Assembly (NCBI RefSeq): GCF_001552275.1
Contig: NZ_BCQW01000001.1
Coordinates: forward strand, 366,800 to 398,799
Origin: Amphibacillus sediminis NBRC 103570
GTDB lineage: Bacteria; Bacillota; Bacilli; Bacillales; Amphibacillaceae
Length of the DNA: 32,000 nt
Reading direction: 5' to 3'
Shown here: piece after piece, positions 5,124 through 28,250 of the stretch
Position numbering within the stretch: position 1 is the first letter of the stretch
Layout of the letters: each line of letters opens with the position of its first letter
Translations under genes and position numbers: made by a program
The notes under the pieces: generated by a model
The model's database searches: none
Told to the model about the DNA's origin: nothing
Seen by the model: the letters and a program-made list of their open reading frames with translations, nothing else

Positions 5124-5796
5124 TGATAACACTCCTCTCAAAAGCATTTAACTGTGGTCTTTTTCTTGCTACTGCCTGTAAACGATCAATCACGATTTTC
5201 CCTGAATCATCAACATAGCCACATTCCAAATAAACGCCATCAGAATTGTAATCAGGAGACCGGCTATATAGTCCTGCAATCCGCAATTGAACAGGATCCA
5301 TGTATGATGCTGCAATAATGGCTTCTTTATTACCTAAATAACCTGCGTGAGCAATCCCTCTTAAATTCCCCATAATAAACACGTTACCTGTTGCTTTAAC
5401 TGTAGCACCTGGATTAACATCACCGATTAACAGTAAGTCTCCCTTCACCTCAACAACTTGTCCAGATCGAACCGTTTTAGTAATCGTCCGAACATCACTT
5501 TCCTCTTTTAGCTCTAATGCCTGCTGTTTTAGAATGACGTTCGACTCTATATTTTGCACGACCATTTTATTCTTCTTTCTAATCAACGCACGTAGCGTCT
5601 CTTCTTGATCATTATGTAAATAGCGATTACCTAGCTGAACAGTGAGTGTAATCATTTGCTCTTCATCAAGATCATCCTGCGAGAGTGTGCGGTCGAGCTC
5701 TTCAAGTAGGTCGTCAAAGGAACACGAATCATCAAGATAGAGTGTTAAGCCTTCACGTGTTCCTTTTATTGTGACATATTGTTTTTTAGTGATCAT
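5116..5796 (-). CDS. minC: Septum site-determining protein MinC
   Basis: C-terminal beta-helix segment GDVNPGATVKATGNVFIMGNLRGIAHAG is typical of MinC. Start ATG 5796 lies behind SD GGAGGTG. Position is between mreD and minD. Confidence 0.9.
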   Translation of the reverse strand: MITKKQYVTIKGTREGLTLYLDDSCSFDDLLEELDRTLSQDDLDEEQMITLTVQLGNRYLHNDQEETLRALIRKKNKMVVQNIESNVILKQQALELKEESDVRTITKTVRSGQVVEVKGDLLLIGDVNPGATVKATGNVFIMGNLRGIAHAGYLGNKEAIIAASYMDPVQLRIAGLYSRSPDYNSDGVYLECGYVDDSGKIVIDRLQAVARKRPQLNAFERSVING

Positions 5797-5837
5797 ATCC
5801 GACACCTCCTATCAATCCGATTACATTCGCTGTTAGT

Positions 5838-6380
5838 TTAGTTCGTCGAACGTTTCGGATCAAATCGATCGTTCGACCATTTGACCAGCTTGCGTTTGAA
5901 AATCAGATAGAAAATAAGAAATACTAAAAGATTAACGAATAACGTAGGCATTAATCTATGAGATAGGTAATCAGCTATCCCCATATTTGTAACACCAATA
6001 AATTGATATATAAAATAGAGCAGAGAATCGACTAAGCCAACACCAATGATCATTAAAATTAGCGCAACATAGAAGTTTGCATGAAGAAGTTTGCGCATGC
6101 CATGGAAAAAATAGGTGATGATAGCATAGCTAAACATATACACACCGATAATACTTGTATATACGATATCAATTAACAAGCCTGACAAAATGGCAAAGAA
6201 CAAGGCATAATAGGTATCCTCTAAATCATAAAACATGACAAGTAAGAGTAAAAACAAAAATACAGAATGAATGACAATGATCAAGCCAGCTTCTGAGATA
6301 CTAGCAGGAATTAGCAAGCTAACCCCTCCTTGCAAAATGAGAAGCAGTAGCAGGATTAAAGGAGGAGCAATTCTAGACAT
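5838..6380 (-). CDS. mreD: Rod shape-determining protein MreD
   Basis: 180 aa polytopic membrane protein directly after mreC, with a TAATG stop/start overlap at 6378..6382. Confidence 0.85.
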   Translation of the reverse strand: MSRIAPPLILLLLLILQGGVSLLIPASISEAGLIIVIHSVFLFLLLLVMFYDLEDTYYALFFAILSGLLIDIVYTSIIGVYMFSYAIITYFFHGMRKLLHANFYVALILMIIGVGLVDSLLYFIYQFIGVTNMGIADYLSHRLMPTLFVNLLVFLIFYLIFKRKLVKWSNDRFDPKRSTN

Positions 6381-7279
6381 TAATCTTCCTCCTCACTCTT
6401 ATCATCGTCATCCTCAGTATCATCAGGCGTGTGGTCGGTTACCATAGTTCTATCTACAACAATGACATGATTAAGATTCTCCATATCCGCGGAAGGCTGG
6501 ACATAGGCAATCTGTGTTAATCCGTATTGATCGGTCGTTACTTCCTCAATTGTCCCAATTTCTAAACCTCTAGGAAATATACCACCTAATCCTGATGAAA
6601 AGACAGATTCACCTTCAGGGATTTCATCATAATACTCAGTAAACTCTAAGATAAGCTGTTCACGTTCTTCATTAAAGCCCATAATAAAGCCCTGTGCCTC
6701 TCCTCCATCTTCAGTTAGCATAACAGTTACTGCAATTCGATTAGATCGATCAAAACCATTTAATAGTAGAACAGATGAGGTAAACTGAGAAGCGGATTGA
6801 ATCTTCCCAATCATGCCATCAGCAGTAATAACTGCCATATCCTGACTAATACCGTCTTGTTTACCTTTATTTATCGTAACTTGCTTGAACCACTGTTCTG
6901 GACTTCTAGCAATGATTGAGGCTTGAATCGGTGTATAATCTCTAATGCTTTCAGTTTTCTTTAATAGTGCCATCAGTTCCTCATTATCGTTTCTTAGCTC
7001 CTGCACTTCATACAAAACGCGTTGATATTGAGCCAAATTCTCTTTCAAAACTTGATTTTCGTGGTACATGTTAATCATACCATCAATATTATCAACGACT
7101 TTTGTTATATAATTAAAGGGCGCCAAGAAGGCCTGCTGTGTCCAGCCAAATACGTCTTGAAAAAATTCCTCAACAGCAGAAAGTTCATCTCGATCACTGA
7201 GCGAGTAGCCGATCAAACCTACCATTATAATGAGCCCTAGTAAAATTGAGAACAGTCGTTTTCTACGAAAAAAAGACAT
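6380..7279 (-). CDS. mreC: Rod shape-determining protein MreC (with acidic C-terminal tail)
   Basis: N-terminal TM segment, a coiled-coil segment, and a C-terminal beta domain (IGKI..., GGIFPRGLEIGTI). Start ATG 7279 lies behind SD GGAGGA. The tail is DDTEDDDDKSEEED. Confidence 0.9.
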   Translation of the reverse strand: MSFFRRKRLFSILLGLIIMVGLIGYSLSDRDELSAVEEFFQDVFGWTQQAFLAPFNYITKVVDNIDGMINMYHENQVLKENLAQYQRVLYEVQELRNDNEELMALLKKTESIRDYTPIQASIIARSPEQWFKQVTINKGKQDGISQDMAVITADGMIGKIQSASQFTSSVLLLNGFDRSNRIAVTVMLTEDGGEAQGFIMGFNEEREQLILEFTEYYDEIPEGESVFSSGLGGIFPRGLEIGTIEEVTTDQYGLTQIAYVQPSADMENLNHVIVVDRTMVTDHTPDDTEDDDDKSEEED

Positions 7280-8334: not shown

Positions 8335-8837
8335 TTCAATCGTCCTCTCTATACTCAAAAAATTCTCTATAATATCTTATAAGATGTTTTAAAAGCTGTT
8401 ATCTTATATCTTACCATAATTAAGAAGCGCCTACGTAAGATTTTTCTCTCAGTAGGTCGCTTTCAATTTGATAACTCACCTTTTTAATTATACGAGAATT
8501 TATCAAAAATAGATAGTCTTATTATGTGAACCTTTTTCATTTAGGAATAGATCATCACAACACTCCCGATAAAATGATCTAAAAGTTCTATTATAGATCT
8601 CTATAATTCTTTCACATTAGCACACAGCAAAGGAACTGATCGAAATCAAGCACCAAGTTCTAGCAGGGTGTAATAATGGTCGGGTGCTTTTTTTGTTAAA
8701 AATGTTAGATTCAGCTCCAGATATTGAAATGTAAAAATCATTTAATGCTGTTCCTAACTTTTTTAAAAAACAGGTGAAAAAACCTGATAAATCTCGTATA
8801 ATATCAGGGAATGTTTTTGAAAACAGGAGGGTTACAT

Positions 8838-9440
8838 ATGAAGTTTAAATTACTAATCATGCTCTTATCTACTTATTTTATATTAAGTGGTTGTGGGTCC
8901 GTTTTTAGAGATATTGCTGGCAGTAAGCCTACAGAGGAACCACCAACAACTGTTGTTGACGATGATACTATAGAGGAAAATGACGTGGATAATCAACATG
9001 TTGTCGAGAGTGATGAATCAGATCAACAAGATGTAGAGGATAAATCAGTAGAGGGAGAATACTTAATCGAACTTAATCAGCCAATAGCCGATAATGAGGA
9101 CTTCTCAGCAACTTTAGTTAGTATTGAGAAAATAATCGATGAATATTGGGATGAAGAAAGAATCGAAGTTACCTTTGATGTTCATAATAAAACAGACGAA
9201 ACTGTTACCTTTCAAGCTCGTGATGTGTCTGTTGATGGTAGAATGGTGAATGAACGAATATTATACATGAGTCAGGATGTAGCGAGTGGCAAATCAGCAT
9301 ATGCGGTCTTGACTATAGAAGACTATAATGGTGGTAAACTACCTGCATTTGAAACTGATTTTGAAATGCGTTTACATGTTTTTTCATTTGAAAATTACGA
9401 CTATGAAAACAGCGCTGATGTTCGGGTCGTATTTGATTGA
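8838..9440 (+). CDS. Putative lipoprotein with acidic linker and C-terminal beta-rich domain of unknown function
   Basis: MKFKLLIMLLSTYFILSGCGS contains a lipobox (LSGC). SD AGGAGG lies 8 nt upstream of ATG 8838. A D/E-rich linker is followed by a domain of about 120 aa. It is the only sizeable plus-strand gene in this part of the window. Confidence 0.75.
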   Translation: MKFKLLIMLLSTYFILSGCGSVFRDIAGSKPTEEPPTTVVDDDTIEENDVDNQHVVESDESDQQDVEDKSVEGEYLIELNQPIADNEDFSATLVSIEKIIDEYWDEERIEVTFDVHNKTDETVTFQARDVSVDGRMVNERILYMSQDVASGKSAYAVLTIEDYNGGKLPAFETDFEMRLHVFSFENYDYENSADVRVVFD

Positions 9441-9841: not shown

Positions 9842-9982
9842 TTAAACATACCCCTTCTCTTTTAAAGAAACAAATTTATGGTCACCTATAATTAAATGGT
9901 CTAACAGCTCTATTCCAATCATTTTTCCACACTCGACTAATCTCTTTGTTACATATATATCTTCTTGTGATGGTGATGGATC
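9842..9982 (-). CDS. radC: RadC-family JAB/MPN-domain protein, exon 2 (46 codons plus stop)
   Basis: The minus-strand translation is [46 protein letters not shown]. This is the canonical RadC C-terminus and completes the JAMM motif begun in exon 1. There is no start codon or SD of its own. Confidence 0.9.
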
Positions 9983-10019
9983 GTAGGGTCGATCTGTCCA
10001 TAGCGACAAACCTCCCTCA

Positions 10020-10053
10020 GAACCGTACGTACACCTTTCAATGTATACGGCTC
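10020..10053 (-). ncRNA. Group II intron catalytic domain V
   Basis: The minus-strand sequence is GAGCCGUAUACAUUGAAAGGUGUACGUACGGUUC. It has the AGC triad, a 2-nt bulge and a GAAA tetraloop, and is near-identical in its helices to my recollection of Ll.LtrB domain V (GAGCCGUAUACUCCGAGAGGGGUACGUACGGUUC). Confidence 0.9.
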
Positions 10054-11174
10054 GCCAGTTGATATGTGTCTACATGAAAACTAAACAGAGCAGGTTGTTT
10101 CGGCAAACGAATCGGCTTATATCCCTGTTCCTTCAGCCATTTGCCAGCCTTCGTTACGGAGCAGCCTTTCTTTAAGGCGATCGTTCTTAGTAAACTAAGT
10201 TGGGCAAAATAAAACAATTGGCCTAAAAAGCTATAGTTATCAGCATACTTAAATAAACAAGCAACTACAAAGCATTCTCTAGCATAGATATTAGCAATCT
10301 GATCAATAGGTAAATGAATAAGCGCTCCTCGGGGATATGGTTTTTTATTACACATACTTCCATACTGATGTAATTGCGCGATGTGTTCGAGGGCTTGCTT
10401 GGTAATTTCAAATCGGATACAGTTATGACGCTGGGAATAACGTATTGAATACCCTGCTAAGCGAATCGGCTTAGAGAAGTGATGGAAGTGAATACTATAA
10501 TCGGAGGCCAATTTTTCTTTCAATCTTTCAACTAATAATAGCGTAGAATTTTTATTGCAGATTAAAGCTAAATAAACTGTTTGGTTGGAGAAGCAATAAA
10601 AACAAGATGAGGAAGTGATCGGTAAAGCCTGAGGATATATAACATGCTGCGATAGTTGGATGGCCAAGCATAAGCCGTTAAAGCGTTCCTTTTGTGACTG
10701 TTGCAGGTGAGAGAAAAAAAGGCTAATTAATTTAATGAACCTTTGATCATCAATTAAGTGGCAAATCCGATTAGTAAAGGTATTTGGTCTAGATTGATAA
10801 CGAAGCTTGATTACCCAATGGACATTTTCCCAATTGGCCTTAATGTGGTTAAGACTTTGTTCTGGGCTTGAGTGATAAGCAGATCTTAAGCAAGGTGAAA
10901 TAAAAAGAAGCTCGATTACATAAATTAAACTTTCCATAACCCATGTACGTTTGATCATTTGAGCAATTGTTCCCCAATTGCTGGATCTCAATGCAAATAA
11001 AAGTTTGCTTAAATCATGATTCCTTGATCGTTGCCAGCTTTTAGTATGATAACTGGTCCGAAGCTCCTGCCAAAGCTCTCTTTGATATAATAAACGATAA
11101 CAATCCTTAATAAATTTCCCCTGTTTTAACCGTTCATGTAAGACTGAAAATTGATTAATCGGCTTAACTGTCAC
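10038..11174 (-). CDS. Group II intron-encoded protein: degenerate RT plus maturase (X) domain, no D/En domain
   Basis: It aligns with LtrA at RT0 ([11 protein letters not shown] vs LYRYLLRPDIY), at RT2a-4 ([11 protein letters not shown]...WVIKL...[14 protein letters not shown]), at the RT7/thumb region (VERLKEKL...RLAGYSIRY vs IKEQLKLF...RFLGYDIRV), and at domain X ([56 protein letters not shown]). YADD is replaced by YLAL. The start is GTG. Confidence 0.85.
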
Positions 11175-11401
11175 CTTCGTGACGCCCCCAATCCTTTTTC
11201 ATCTATCAACCTGCCTCCCTTCCCCCTGCTAAGCAGATTACCCGCAAACGTTGAGTACTATGGAGACTCCGTTACCCTATAGCAATCGCTACTTAGGTAA
11301 TCCCTACCTATCTGTTCAAAAAAGATACGTGATGGTTAGGTACTCCTTTTGACTGTTTCTCCAACTAGGAGATTGGTAGGTAGACCCTATCATAATCTAA
11401 G

Positions 11402-11407
11402 TCTGAC
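11402..11407 (-). other. Candidate EBS1 of the intron
   Basis: Minus-strand GUCAGA pairs with IBS1 UCUGGC, the last 6 nt of exon 1 (5 Watson-Crick pairs plus 1 G-U). Confidence 0.6.
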
Positions 11408-11455
11408 GAGCTTAGCTTATTCTACCTAAATAACACAAATGTTATCATGCATCCC

Positions 11456-11461
11456 CATCCA
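11456..11461 (-). other. Candidate EBS2 of the intron
   Basis: Minus-strand UGGAUG pairs perfectly with IBS2 CAUCCA (exon positions -12..-7). It lies about 50 nt upstream of EBS1 in the RNA, as expected for domain I of IIA/IIB introns. Confidence 0.6.
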
Positions 11462-11639
11462 TAAGTCTAGAGTTCAAGCAGTATAGCCTTTACCATACAT
11501 CACTTGACCAAGCCAATAGCTTTACACCATGCTCTTGTCCTCCATTATGTTTCCATTAGAAGTAAGGTGCTGGTCATAGAATCTGATAAGGAATTCTAGA
11601 TCTAATTGATCACTTTTATGAACAGCTTTGTAGGCGCAC

Positions 11640-12188
11640 GCCAGATGGATGATTGTGAACACAGATAATGGATGCTGCTGATCGTTTGACAGCTTCTCGA
11701 AATACCTCTCGTGGGTGCACTATACTTGAATTAAGGCTACCAATAAAGACAGTTTGACGATGAATAATTTGATTTTTTGTATTTAAGAAGAGGGCAACAA
11801 AATGCTCTTGCTTTAATAATCGCATATCTTCCATAACAAACTCAGCACCATCTTCAGGGCACCTGACTACATAACGTTCATTTGCAATTAGCCTATTCAT
11901 ACGATTTCCTAACTCAATGGTAGCAAGTATGCCCACTGCTTTTACCTGCCCGATTCCCTTAATGGCCATTAACTCTTCTAACGTTGCATCACGTAAAAGC
12001 TCAATCCCTTCAAAATGCATATAGACTCGTTTGGCTAATTCCTGTACACTCTCCTCTCTCGTCCCACTTCCGATGATAATCGCTAAAAGTTCTTGAAAAG
12101 ATAGGTGTGATGCCCCGTGTTCAATGAGTCTTTCCCTTGGTCTGTCTTTTTTCGGGATATCCTTCATTTTTAAATGAAGATTGGGCAT
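11640..12188 (-). CDS. radC: RadC-family JAB/MPN-domain protein, exon 1 (183 codons)
   Basis: MPNLHLKMKDIPKKDRPRERL...HhH-like LLAIIIGSGTREESV...GIGQVKA...CVHNHPSG. The ORF-track product continues VRLQSCS* into the intron. Spliced, the product is 229 aa, the normal RadC length. Confidence 0.92.
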
Positions 12189-16748: not shown

Positions 16749-16789
16749 AAAAAAAGCTCACAACATAAATAATCTTTTATGATGTCAGC
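16749..16789 (-). terminator. Intrinsic terminator in the pilC-pilA spacer (pilBTC terminator or pilA leader attenuator)
   Basis: Minus-strand GCUGACAUCAUAAA-AGAUUA-UUUAUGUUGUGAGC (14 stem positions, 2 mismatches) is directly followed by UUUUUUU. It lies about 80 nt upstream of the pilA ATG. Confidence 0.7.
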
Positions 16790-16871
16790 CGGTTGCACTA
16801 CTTGCTCCAAATTACCAAAGTGCCCAAATAAGGTAATTTATCATCGCATCTGAAATTGATTTTATAAAACT

Positions 16872-24939: not shown

Positions 24940-25100
24940 ATAAAGTGAAACTTTCGTTCAGTGGGGTTTCGACGCATAGGATGTGCTCGTGCAGACGTTG
25001 CGACACGACGTCGCGAGCCTTAGTCAGCTTCCTCTTCGCACACTGAACGTTAGTTGAACCAATCGGGCCGTTACTGGCTGTTGGATCTCCTACTTAGACA
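24940..25100 (-). ncRNA. Candidate structured RNA element, unclassified, in the folC 5' region
   Basis: Local G+C jump (36/60 in 24961..25020 versus 20/60 in 25101..25160, by my count). A 9-bp long-range helix (25038..25046 with 24952..24960) encloses a hairpin at 24983..25014 (CUCG-C-GACGU...ACGUC-UGCA-CGAG). A further hairpin lies at 25056..25081. There is no ORF. Strand is assigned only from context. Confidence 0.35.
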
Positions 25101-27964: not shown

Positions 27965-28250
27965 AAAATAAAAAACCCTTTTCGTCCTATAAAGGACGAA
28001 AAGGGTTGAGCAATCCGTGGTACCACCTTTGTTTATAGCCTATCATTGACTATACACTTCATTTTGATAACGGCTTTAACCGGTTTAACCTAGTAGTCAT
28101 TGTAATATGACGTTCAGTAAAACTACATCCAAGGCTACCTTCCACTGTCAGTGACTTAGAAATCTTCCAGCTAGTGATTTCCTCTCTGTCAAGTGTAAAC
28201 AATGTACTCTTCCTCTTCATCGTATTTTATTCGTTTCATTTCGTTTTGAT
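27965..28250 (-). promoter_or_regulatory. T-box riboswitch leader of valS (candidate GUA valine specifier)
   Basis: Stem I elements are present: a K-turn-like AUGAAGAGGAAGAGUA, the AG bay AGAGAGG and the distal loop GCUGGAAG. The specifier-loop GAAGGUAGCC has GUA at 28136..28138; the register is ambiguous with GGU. The T-box sequence AAAGGUGGUACCACGG is at 28015..28030. The terminator AACCCUUUUCGUCC/GGACGAAAAGGGUU plus a U-tract is at 27965..28007. Confidence 0.88.

What the first reader, a model, noticed from the sequence alone, without database searches (positions are those of the whole stretch)
10038..11174. The intron-encoded protein looks like a reverse-transcriptase-dead, endonuclease-less, maturase-only protein
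The 378-aa ORF aligns with LtrA-type proteins, but the catalytic positions are gone. The RT3 GDIKGCFD region reads KLRYQSRPN. The RT5 GTPQGG region reads NGLCLA. RT5/6 YADD reads YLAL. The RT1/2 region (PK...RPLGIP) is largely deleted, and nothing follows domain X, so there is no DNA-binding or HNH domain. The thumb/X region is well conserved, and the frame stays open for 378 codons in an AT-rich genome, which suggests selection for maturase function only. This parallels organellar MatK/MatR-type degeneration. As far as I know it is uncommon for a bacterial intron fixed in a housekeeping gene.
Basis: partly seen in the sequence, partly recalled or inferred. Interest (0 to 1): 0.7.

Follow-up and report, generated by a model that had tools for sequence, protein, structure and literature searches.

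The report
RT-dead maturase in radC intron
The 378-codon gene sits inside a self-splicing group II intron in the radC gene; it has lost every reverse-transcriptase and nuclease feature but is still kept by selection, most likely to help splicing, and it matches the one bacterial case already published (O.i.I2 of Oceanobacillus iheyensis).

Summary
Window 11639-9983 (- strand) is a 1657-nt group IIA intron. It splits the radC metalloprotease motif HNHPSG|DPSPS of Amphibacillus sediminis.

**The protein.** The 378-aa ORF is collinear with the intact 629-aa protein found at the same radC site in other Bacillaceae.
- RT1, RT4 (GTPQGG), the RT4a insertion and the DNA-binding/HNH region are deleted.
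- The catalytic Asp of RT3 is Arg, and YADD is SNQT.
- No Pfam RVT_1 match, yet AlphaFold gives pLDDT 91 and the best structural match is LtrA.

**Selection.** Degenerate relatives have dN/dS of 0.24-0.33, against 0.07 for intact ones. At least five Amphibacillus species keep an open ORF at about 30% identity.

**The ribozyme and host gene.** Domain V, the branch-point A and EBS1/EBS2/delta are intact. EBS1 covaries with synonymous exon changes. The spliced RadC is complete.

**Novelty.** This is not new in kind. It is the ortholog of O.i.I2 of Oceanobacillus iheyensis, called the only known bacterial example in a 2015 review.

**What may be new.** More than 40 species carry an intron at this site, ranging from mobile forms to X-domain-only and ORF-less forms. 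Similar degenerate cases occur in soj/parA and hbs.

Maturase activity is inferred, not shown.

The parts
11640..12188 (-). radC exon 1, ending ...CVHNHPSG. IBS2 is CATCC (11651-11647) and IBS1 is TCTGGC (11645-11640).
   Evidence: Joined to exon 2 it gives a 229-aa RadC with a full RadC-like JAB domain (Pfam 1.9e-48, profile positions 2-120 of 121).
9983..11639 (-). Group II intron of class IIA (mitochondrial-like, ML lineage), 1657 nt, running from 5' GTGCG to 3' CCTAC. It is the ortholog of O.i.I2.
   Evidence: The same insertion site is used in A. marinus, Oceanobacillus sp., O. iheyensis HTE831 and more than 40 other species.
11456..11460 (-). EBS2 (GGAUG), complementary to IBS2 (CAUCC) in exon 1.
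11402..11409 (-). Delta (UC, 11409-11408) followed by EBS1 (GUCAGA, 11407-11402). EBS1 pairs with IBS1 (UCUGGC). Delta pairs with GA, the first two bases of exon 2.
   Evidence: In other species EBS1 changes together with synonymous changes in the exon (ACCAGA with TCTGGT, ACCTGA with TCAGGT, TCCTGA with TCAGGA).
11170..11189 (-). Shine-Dalgarno-like GGGGG (11189-11185) followed by a small hairpin, GUCAC-GAAG-GUGAC (11183-11170), that contains the GTG start codon. It is a candidate domain IVa-type binding and autoregulation site.
   Evidence: The hairpin is kept through double compensatory changes: GUUAU/AUAAC in A. marinus and GUCAU/AUGGC in full-length introns. The GTG aligns with the second ATG of the ancestral ATGAATATG.
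10038..11174 (-). Intron-encoded protein ORF, 378 aa. It is RT-dead and lacks the endonuclease.
10401..11174 (-). RT-derived scaffold (aa 1-258). RT0 ([12 protein letters not shown], aa 24-35) is kept. RT1, RT4 and RT4a are deleted. The RT3 Asp is Arg (aa 120-130, [11 protein letters not shown]). YADD is SNQT (aa 196-199).
   Evidence: AlphaFold keeps the palm beta-hairpin (strands 191-196 and 199-204) with N197/Q198 at the turn. The equivalent region of relatives has dN/dS of 0.26-0.39.
10125..10400 (-). Domain X / thumb (aa 259-350), including YG at aa 271-272 and [15 protein letters not shown] at aa 326-340.
   Evidence: This is the most conserved part of the protein (43% identity to A. marinus).
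10020..10053 (-). Domain V, with the AGC triad, a 2-nt bulge and a GAAA loop. The ORF stop codon TGA (10040-10038) lies at the loop, so the last 7 codons overlap the 5' strand of domain V.
   Evidence: Domain V is invariant across the 28 introns aligned, but those loci were selected by a domain V sequence pattern, so this invariance is partly by construction. The stop position, 16 nt into domain V, is shared with the intact 629-aa proteins.
9983..10017 (-). Domain VI, shortened relative to the full-length introns, with the bulged branch-point A at 9989 and a 3' terminal AC.
   Evidence: Nine of the 27 predicted domain V/VI pairs, all in domain VI, show compensatory changes across species.
9842..9982 (-). 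radC exon 2, encoding [15 protein letters not shown]...KGYV plus the stop codon.

Best explanation
This is an immobile, vertically inherited group IIA intron in the chromosomal radC gene of Amphibacillus sediminis. It is the ortholog of O.i.I2 of Oceanobacillus iheyensis.

Its protein descends from a 629-aa reverse transcriptase / maturase / HNH-endonuclease that is still intact at the same site in other Bacillaceae. Deletions and substitutions have removed polymerase and nuclease function. What remains is an RT-shaped RNA-binding scaffold plus the thumb (domain X).

Proposed mechanism:
1. The protein is translated from the unspliced radC transcript. Translation starts at a GTG that lies in a small hairpin.
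2. By analogy with LtrA, the protein binds its own intron RNA at that hairpin and at the catalytic core, and stabilises the active fold.
3. The ribozyme then carries out branching at A9989 and exon ligation. EBS1, EBS2 and delta guide the reaction.
4. Splicing restores the HNHPSGDPSPS motif of a 229-aa RadC.
5. Without RT or endonuclease the intron cannot retrohome.

**Shown here:** the anatomy, the loss of catalytic motifs, the retained fold, purifying selection, an intact and co-evolving ribozyme, and intact exons.

**Inferred, not shown:** RNA binding, dependence of splicing on the protein, and translational autoregulation.
For: **Identity and site**
- The window protein is 100% identical to an A. 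sediminis protein.
- An intron occupies the same HNHPSG|DP.PS site in A. marinus, Oceanobacillus, Halalkalibacter, Gracilibacillus, Virgibacillus and others.
- O. iheyensis HTE831 OB2055 lies in radC at that site with an identical domain V. It is 25% identical to the window protein over its full length, E 4e-21.

**Ancestry**
- The intact relative has RVT_1 (2e-34), AI2M-like HNH (1.6e-15) and Intron_maturas2 (6e-12). The window protein reaches none of these.
- The collinear alignment shows the specific deletions and substitutions.
- The stop codon inside the domain V loop is shared with the intact proteins.

**Fold**
- The AlphaFold model has pLDDT 91 and pTM 0.85.
- The best PDB match is LtrA in its ribonucleoprotein (8h2h_D, E 3e-9), followed by other group II intron RTs.

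**Selection**
- dN/dS is 0.07 for intact proteins and 0.24-0.33 for degenerate ones.
- Both the RT remnant and domain X are significantly below 1.
- The open reading frame is kept across A. jilinensis, A. xylanus, A. sp. MSJ-3, A. marinus and A. sediminis.

**Vertical inheritance**
- For the three close degenerate pairs, host radC dS is about equal to the protein's dS.

**Working ribozyme**
- Domain V is invariant and domain VI shows compensatory changes.
- EBS1 tracks synonymous exon changes.
- The spliced RadC gives a complete JAB domain.

**Literature**
- The same reading was given for O.i.I2 in PMC4424553.
Against: - No experiment or transcript data were available, so neither splicing nor its dependence on the protein is demonstrated.
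- The protein evolves fast. It is 32% identical to the A. marinus ortholog, while RadC is 81% identical. For that pair dS is saturated, so no reliable dN/dS exists for the window ORF itself.
- The domain X match to Pfam is below the gathering threshold.
- Related introns persist with only a 141-aa X-domain ORF (L078) or with no ORF at all (L007, 706 nt). The protein is therefore not indispensable in every lineage.
- The rest of the A. sediminis genome could not be checked for another group II protein acting in trans.
Confidence: 0.75

Rival explanations
1. The ORF is a decaying relic with no function. The intron either self-splices or is spliced by a host factor or by a maturase encoded elsewhere in the genome.
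For: - An ORF-less intron (L007, 706 nt) and an X-domain-only intron (L078, 141 aa) exist at the same radC site.
- The protein diverges fast (32% identity against 81% for RadC).
- Pfam maturase score is below threshold.
Against: - The chance of 378 open codons is about 5e-12, and the ORF is open in at least five Amphibacillus species whose synonymous sites are saturated.
- dN/dS is 0.18-0.47 in close degenerate pairs.
- The AlphaFold model is confident (pLDDT 91).
- The start-codon hairpin is kept through compensatory changes.
Confidence: 0.1
2. The protein has been recruited for a different or wider role. It might act as a general maturase for other introns, as MatK does, or as an RNA-binding regulator of radC or mreBCD expression.
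For: - The RT-derived scaffold is under purifying selection although catalytically dead.
- The review cited describes MatK as binding several chloroplast introns.
Against: - Only one group II domain V is present in the 32-kb window.
- Every family member that was located sits in its own intron.
- Nothing points to other targets.
Confidence: 0.08
3. The intron no longer splices and radC is a split pseudogene in Amphibacillus.
For: radC is not known to be essential (own knowledge). No expression data were available.
Against: - The exons are intact, in frame, and 81% identical between two species whose synonymous sites are saturated.
- The spliced product gives a complete RadC domain.
- EBS1, EBS2 and delta still match the exons, and EBS1 covaries with the exon across species.
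- Domain V and the branch-point A are intact.
Confidence: 0.05
4. The protein keeps polymerase activity through a non-canonical active site or a different alignment register.
For: A. marinus has Y-L-D-D at the RT5 position if the alignment is shifted by one residue.
Against: - The window protein has no Asp or Glu in aa 120-131 or aa 192-204.
- RT1 and the dNTP-binding RT4 block GTPQG are deleted in both species.
- None of 33 family members matches RVT_1.
Confidence: 0.02

Closest known systems
O.i.I2, the radC group II intron of Oceanobacillus iheyensis HTE831 (protein OB2055). Source: Simon et al. 2008, as cited in Zimmerly and Semper 2015 (PMC4424553).
   Same: - Same host gene and exactly the same insertion site (HNHPSG|DP.PS).
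- Identical domain V.
- A homologous, collinear ML-class protein that lacks YADD and the endonuclease but has an open frame.
   Different: - The window version is more reduced: 378 aa against 438 aa, and 1657 nt against 1948 nt.
- It has an extra deletion of a domain I hairpin and a shortened domain VI.
- It uses a GTG start.
- It keeps the ancestral stop codon inside domain V. In the closely related Oceanobacillus sp. ISL-73 intron the ORF stops about 40 nt upstream of domain V.
- The two proteins share only 25% identity.
Full-length mobile radC intron of other Bacillaceae (629-aa protein; for example Peribacillus cavernae L036 and Niallia L045).
   Same: - Same insertion site.
- Alignable ribozyme.
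- Same start-codon region and same stop position in domain V.
   Different: - It has all RT motifs, the RT4a insertion, the DNA-binding region and the HNH nuclease.
- Its dN/dS is 0.07.
- Its dS is about 1.2 between hosts whose radC is saturated, which suggests horizontal spread.
Ll.LtrB / LtrA of Lactococcus lactis
   Same: - Same intron class.
- LtrA is the best structural match (8h2h_D) and the only PDB sequence match to the profile.
- The full-length radC intron shares about 65% DNA identity with ltrA over about 540 nt.
- Both have the start codon inside a hairpin. That this is true of LtrB domain IVa is from own knowledge.
   Different: LtrA is an active RT and endonuclease. Ll.LtrB is mobile and sits in a relaxase gene on a conjugative element.
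MatK (chloroplast trnK intron) and MatR (plant mitochondrial nad1 intron 4)
   Same: - IIA-lineage proteins that lost RT motifs but kept domain X.
- They sit in immobile introns of host genes and are retained as splicing factors (PMC4424553).
   Different: - They are organellar.
- According to that review, MatK serves several introns.
- No direct sequence relationship to them was tested here. This is an analogy, not membership.

Membership tests
Group II intron (ribozyme) | 5' GUGYG, 3' AY, and a domain V of about 34 nt with the AGC triad and a 2-nt bulge | tested here: met
   GTGCG at 11639 and ...CCTAC ending at 9983. RF00029 scores 61 bits against a gathering score of 40. The domain V pairs are listed.
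Group II intron (ribozyme) | Domain VI with a bulged branch-point A 7-8 nt from the 3' end | tested here: met
   A at 9989, position -7. The domain VI helix is supported by compensatory changes.
Group II intron (ribozyme) | EBS1-IBS1 and EBS2-IBS2 pairing with the 5' exon | tested here: met
   GUCAGA pairs with UCUGGC, and GGAUG with CAUCC. EBS1 covaries with the exon across species.
Class IIA / ML (mitochondrial-like) lineage | Delta immediately 5' of EBS1 pairs with the first bases of the 3' exon; the protein is of LtrA/aI2 type | tested here: met
   UC at 11409-11408 pairs with GA of exon 2 in all species examined. The intact relative has AI2M-like HNH and Intron_maturas2. The best fold match is LtrA. 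The full domain I-IV secondary structure was not modelled.
Active group II intron reverse transcriptase | RT1-7 motifs with the catalytic Asp in RT3 and YADD in RT5 | tested here: not met
   No RVT_1 match. RT1 and RT4 are deleted, the RT3 Asp is Arg, and YADD is SNQT.
Group II intron endonuclease (DNA-binding region plus HNH) | C-terminal DNA-binding region and HNH motif | tested here: not met
   The 104 aa that include CEACG...HHV...CFKCHHDHH are deleted.
Group II intron maturase (domain X / thumb) | Match to Intron_maturas2 or GIIM, and a thumb-like helical domain following the palm | tested here: inconclusive
   The window protein scores 16 bits, below the 20.8 cut-off. The A. marinus ortholog scores 27.6 bits, and 25 of 33 family members match. 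A two-sequence profile hits LtrA residues 334-483. The AlphaFold model has the helical thumb. Homology is clear; maturase activity was not tested.
O.i.I2-type radC intron | Inserted in radC, with an ML-class protein that lacks YADD but has an open frame | tested here: met
   Same site, same domain V and a homologous protein in O. iheyensis HTE831. The description of O.i.I2 is taken from PMC4424553. The original 2008 paper could not be read.
MatK / MatR | Organellar trnK or nad1 intron protein | not tested
   This is a bacterial chromosomal locus. The resemblance is functional analogy only.

The most novel reading that the evidence does not exclude
The radC intron is not a one-off. It appears to be a long-lived, domesticated intron lineage across Bacillaceae that preserves every stage of decay at one site:
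- a mobile form with a 629-aa RT/X/endonuclease protein that seems to spread horizontally;
- proteins with single YADD lesions;
- RT-dead proteins of 350-460 aa;
- an X-domain-only ORF of 141 aa;
- a 706-nt ORF-less intron.

Parallel degenerate-protein introns occur in soj/parA of Clostridium and in hbs (HU) of a Thermoactinomycetaceae genome.

If this is real and not yet described, bacteria reproduce the organellar route from retroelement to splicing-only intron. [quoted passage not shown]
Probability: 0.5. Interest if true: 0.6.

Novelty: new member of a known kind. Interest (0 to 1): 0.4.

Why it matters
Group II introns are thought to be the ancestors of spliceosomal introns. The step from selfish retroelement to host-dependent, splicing-only intron has been documented almost entirely in organelles.

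The window adds a second genus, and a more reduced form, to the single bacterial precedent (O.i.I2). The related loci provide a natural deletion series of one protein at one site. That series could be used to map which parts of a group II intron protein are needed for maturase function as opposed to reverse transcription and mobility.

For this window alone the result is confirmatory, not surprising.

Tried and rejected
**Searches that gave nothing**
- A single-sequence search against PDB sequences found no group II protein.
- NCBIfam gave no match.
- Rfam at permissive thresholds gave no domain I-IV family match, only domains V/VI.
A domain V DNA pattern was used instead.
- Exact look-ups of P0024 and P0112 found no contig.
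- The original O.i.I2 paper (Simon et al. 2008) is not held, so its content is cited only through the 2015 review.
- No plasmid carries a close copy of the full-length intron. The best match has 66% identity over a third of the query.

**Ideas considered and rejected**
- Class IIC was considered because the part of the intron 5' of the ORF is short (465 nt). It was rejected for four reasons: EBS2 and delta pairings are present, the intron lies inside a coding sequence, the intact relative carries an endonuclease, and LtrA is the best match.
- A shifted register that keeps the catalytic Asp residues was considered. No acidic residue lies near either position in the window protein. A. marinus has YLDD at RT5 but lacks RT1, the RT3 Asp and RT4.

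**Limitation**
- A direct dN/dS for the window ORF is not usable, because dS against its only available ortholog is saturated.

Full report
**What is at the coordinates**

The 378-aa ORF (11174..10038, - strand, GTG start) lies inside a group II intron. Rfam places domains V/VI at 9983-10055 (RF00029, 61 bits).

Reading the - strand, radC exon 1 ends ...CAT CCA TCT GGC (HPSG) at 11640. The intron starts with GTGCG at 11639 and ends with ...GACCCTAC at 9983. Exon 2 starts with GAT CCA TCA CCA TCA (DPSPS) at 9982.

The intron is 1657 nt long. It splits the JAMM motif HNHPSG|DPSPS. Joining the exons gives a 229-aa protein with a complete RadC-like JAB domain (Pfam 1.9e-48).

The ORF product is 100% identical to a hypothetical protein of Amphibacillus sediminis. 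The chance of 378 open codons at this base composition is about 5e-12.

**Checking the motif claims**

On its own the protein matches no RVT_1 model. It gives only a sub-threshold Intron_maturas2 match (16 bits against 20.8). It matches nothing in NCBIfam or among PDB sequences.

The decisive comparison came from relatives. A scan of one genome per species with the domain V sequence returned 75 loci. In 31 of them (30 loci from that scan plus the window itself) both splice junctions could be located at the same radC site. Several carry a 2.53-kb intron with a 629-aa protein. That protein has RVT_1 (2e-34), Intron_maturas2 (6e-12) and an AI2M-like HNH domain (1.6e-15).

The window protein is collinear with this intact form (A4):

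| Region | Intact 629-aa protein | Window protein |
|---|---|---|
| RT0 loop | present | deleted |
| RT1 | IPKSNGKKRPLGVP | deleted |
| RT3 | EGDIKGFFD | KLRYQSRPN (catalytic Asp is Arg) |
| RT4 | TYHKTYSGTPQG | deleted |
| RT4a insertion | 68 aa | deleted |
| RT5 | YADD | S196-N-Q-T199 |
| DNA-binding + HNH | 104 aa | deleted |

No acidic residue lies in aa 120-131 or aa 192-204.

'NGLCLA' aligns with SPLLAN, which follows GTPQGG, and that motif is RT4. 'YLAL' corresponds to VIGI, five residues after YADD. Neither correction changes the conclusion.

**A degenerate family, and the precedent**

An exhaustive profile search found 111 related cluster representatives, about 50 of them with E below 1e-10. 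Many are 350-450 aa long and match over their full length. Of 33 such proteins, none matches RVT_1 and 25 match Intron_maturas2.

The closest clade is within the genus: A. marinus, A. jilinensis, A. xylanus, A. sp. MSJ-3 and metagenomic relatives. Each is only about 30% identical to the window protein.

The 2015 review by Zimmerly and Semper states that degenerate intron-encoded proteins are rare in bacteria. It names O.i.I2 of Oceanobacillus iheyensis as the only known example: an ML-class protein lacking YADD, with an open frame, in an intron whose exons encode RadC (PMC4424553).

I located O. iheyensis HTE831 OB2055 (438 aa). It lies between the two halves of radC, at the same HNHPSG|DPTPS site, and has an identical domain V. 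It aligns with the window protein over its full length (25% identity, E 4e-21).

The window intron is therefore the Amphibacillus ortholog of O.i.I2.

**Is the dead protein kept by selection?**

| Comparison | Protein dN/dS | Protein dS | Host radC dS |
|---|---|---|---|
| Intact 629-aa proteins | about 0.07 | about 1.2 | saturated |
| Halalkalibacter pair (degenerate) | 0.24 | 0.24 | 0.16 |
| Robertmurraya / Bacillus sp. MAG pair (degenerate) | 0.33 | 0.27 | 0.33 |
| Oceanobacillus pair (degenerate) | 0.33 | 0.58 | 0.46 |

(Values.)

When the degenerate proteins are split by region, both the RT remnant (0.26-0.39) and domain X (0.18-0.47) are significantly below 1.

For the window against A. 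marinus, dS is saturated. Even so, non-synonymous differences are significantly rarer than synonymous ones in both regions (p 2e-6 and 1e-9). Second codon positions are the most conserved.

In the degenerate pairs host radC dS is about equal to the protein's dS. This fits vertical co-divergence. Between carriers of the intact intron, host radC is saturated while the protein's dS is only about 1.2. This fits horizontal spread of the mobile form.

**Fold**

With the 33-sequence alignment, AlphaFold gives pLDDT 91 and pTM 0.85. The palm beta-hairpin is retained, with N197/Q198 at its turn, followed by a helical thumb. Foldseek ranks LtrA in its ribonucleoprotein first (8h2h_D, E 3e-9), then other group II intron RTs.

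The protein is therefore an RT-shaped scaffold without a catalytic centre. It is not a bare X domain.

**Ribozyme**

- Domain V is invariant across 28 introns, although those loci were selected by a domain V pattern. The branch-point A is present at 9989. Domain VI shows compensatory changes (9 of 27 predicted pairs).
- EBS1 (GUCAGA, 11407-11402), EBS2 (GGAUG, 11460-11456) and delta (UC) are complementary to the flanking exons. Across species EBS1 changes together with synonymous exon changes. This argues for continuing selection for splicing.
- Compared with the full-length intron, the Amphibacillus introns lack a domain I hairpin and the distal part of domain VI.
- The GTG start aligns with the second ATG of the ancestral ATGAATATG. 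It lies in a 5-bp hairpin that A. sediminis and A. marinus each maintain through double compensatory changes. This resembles the start-codon-containing domain IVa site bound by LtrA (own knowledge).
- The stop codon lies in the domain V tetraloop, as in the intact proteins.

**Mechanism and verdict**

The most likely reading is an immobile intron whose protein is retained as a cis-acting maturase (confidence 0.75).

The main rivals are these:
- a functionless relic, with the intron splicing on its own or with help in trans;
- recruitment of the protein to another RNA-binding role;
- a non-splicing radC pseudogene;
- cryptic RT activity.

Each is disfavoured by the evidence above. None is excluded experimentally.

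In kind this is already known, so I rate it a new member of a known kind.

What goes beyond the literature I could search is the breadth of the lineage, the complete decay series at one site, and the parallel cases in soj/parA and hbs.

Noticed in passing
L036, L045, L020, L025, L057, L065, L008, L058 and L052 (radC loci of Peribacillus, Niallia, Oceanobacillus, Salimicrobium, Virgibacillus and others): A full-length 2.53-kb intron with an intact protein of 625-629 aa (RT/X/HNH) occupies exactly the same radC site. The protein's dS between hosts is about 1.2 while host radC dS is saturated. This suggests that the mobile form spreads horizontally and homes to this conserved motif.
   Followed up: partly
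L078 (Gracilibacillus halophilus, intron 5647-6614) and L007 (G. marinus, intron 5599-6304): These are extreme reductions at the same radC site. One is a 968-nt intron whose only ORF is a 141-aa free-standing domain X (Intron_maturas2, 25 bits). The other is a 706-nt ORF-less intron.
   Followed up: partly
L062, L048, L033, L029 and L034: These look like early stages of decay of the radC intron protein. They carry single lesions in YADD (YAED, YAGD, YADI, FEDE, YHNH) and truncated endonuclease regions.
   Followed up: no
L006 (Clostridium algidicarnis) and L063 (C. simiarum): An intron of about 2.0 kb with the same domain V splits the Walker A motif of soj/parA (KGGVG|KTTT). Its protein of about 447 aa has no RVT_1 match and only a weak Intron_maturas2 match. 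The spliced product gives a complete AAA_31 domain (1.3e-68). This looks like a second housekeeping-gene intron with a degenerate protein.
   Followed up: partly
L014 (Thermoactinomycetaceae MAG): A 2010-nt intron lies in the HU gene hbs (LIGFG|NFEVRER). Its 427-aa protein still matches RVT_1 (53 bits) but has YLDT in place of YADD, has lost RT1 and has no endonuclease. The spliced HU matches only profile positions 1-65 of 90.
   Followed up: partly
window 10038-10061: The last seven codons and the stop codon of the ORF overlap the 5' strand and the loop of domain V. The same overlap is present in the intact 629-aa proteins (QLASRIR). These residues are therefore conserved because of an RNA constraint.
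   Followed up: yes
window 11170-11183; also L001 and the full-length loci: A hairpin containing the start codon is maintained through compensatory substitutions. It is a candidate site for protein binding or translational autoregulation.
   Followed up: partly
L033 (Mesobacillus stamsii), 5' part of the intron: A tandem repeat of about 19 nt (TAGACATTGGTCTATGAAA, several copies) is inserted in the region just upstream of the conserved domain III-like block.
   Followed up: no
L032, L044, L046, L051, L059 and L075 (Streptococcus); L018, L019, L023, L024, L031, L037, L061, L077 and L079 (Clostridia); L027, L038, L064 and L073 (Sinanaerobacter): Introns with an identical domain V lie outside radC. 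Where enough upstream sequence was held, nearly all carry proteins of 601-651 aa with YADD and HNH-like C-termini (the L075 ORF looks truncated; L044 had too little sequence to check). The Sinanaerobacter copies sit at several contig ends and their proteins were not examined. All are probably mobile relatives.
   Followed up: no
window 8811-9440 (+ strand): A 209-aa lipoprotein-like ORF on the opposite strand lies between radC exon 2 and mreB. In the Oceanobacillus loci (L003, L080) radC is followed directly by mreB.
   Followed up: no
window 27989-28229, 16778-16860, 950-1025 and 24973-25038 (all - strand): Rfam matches above the gathering score: a T-box leader, a c-di-GMP-II riboswitch, a ribosomal protein L21 leader and a Bacillaceae-1 RNA.
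   Followed up: no
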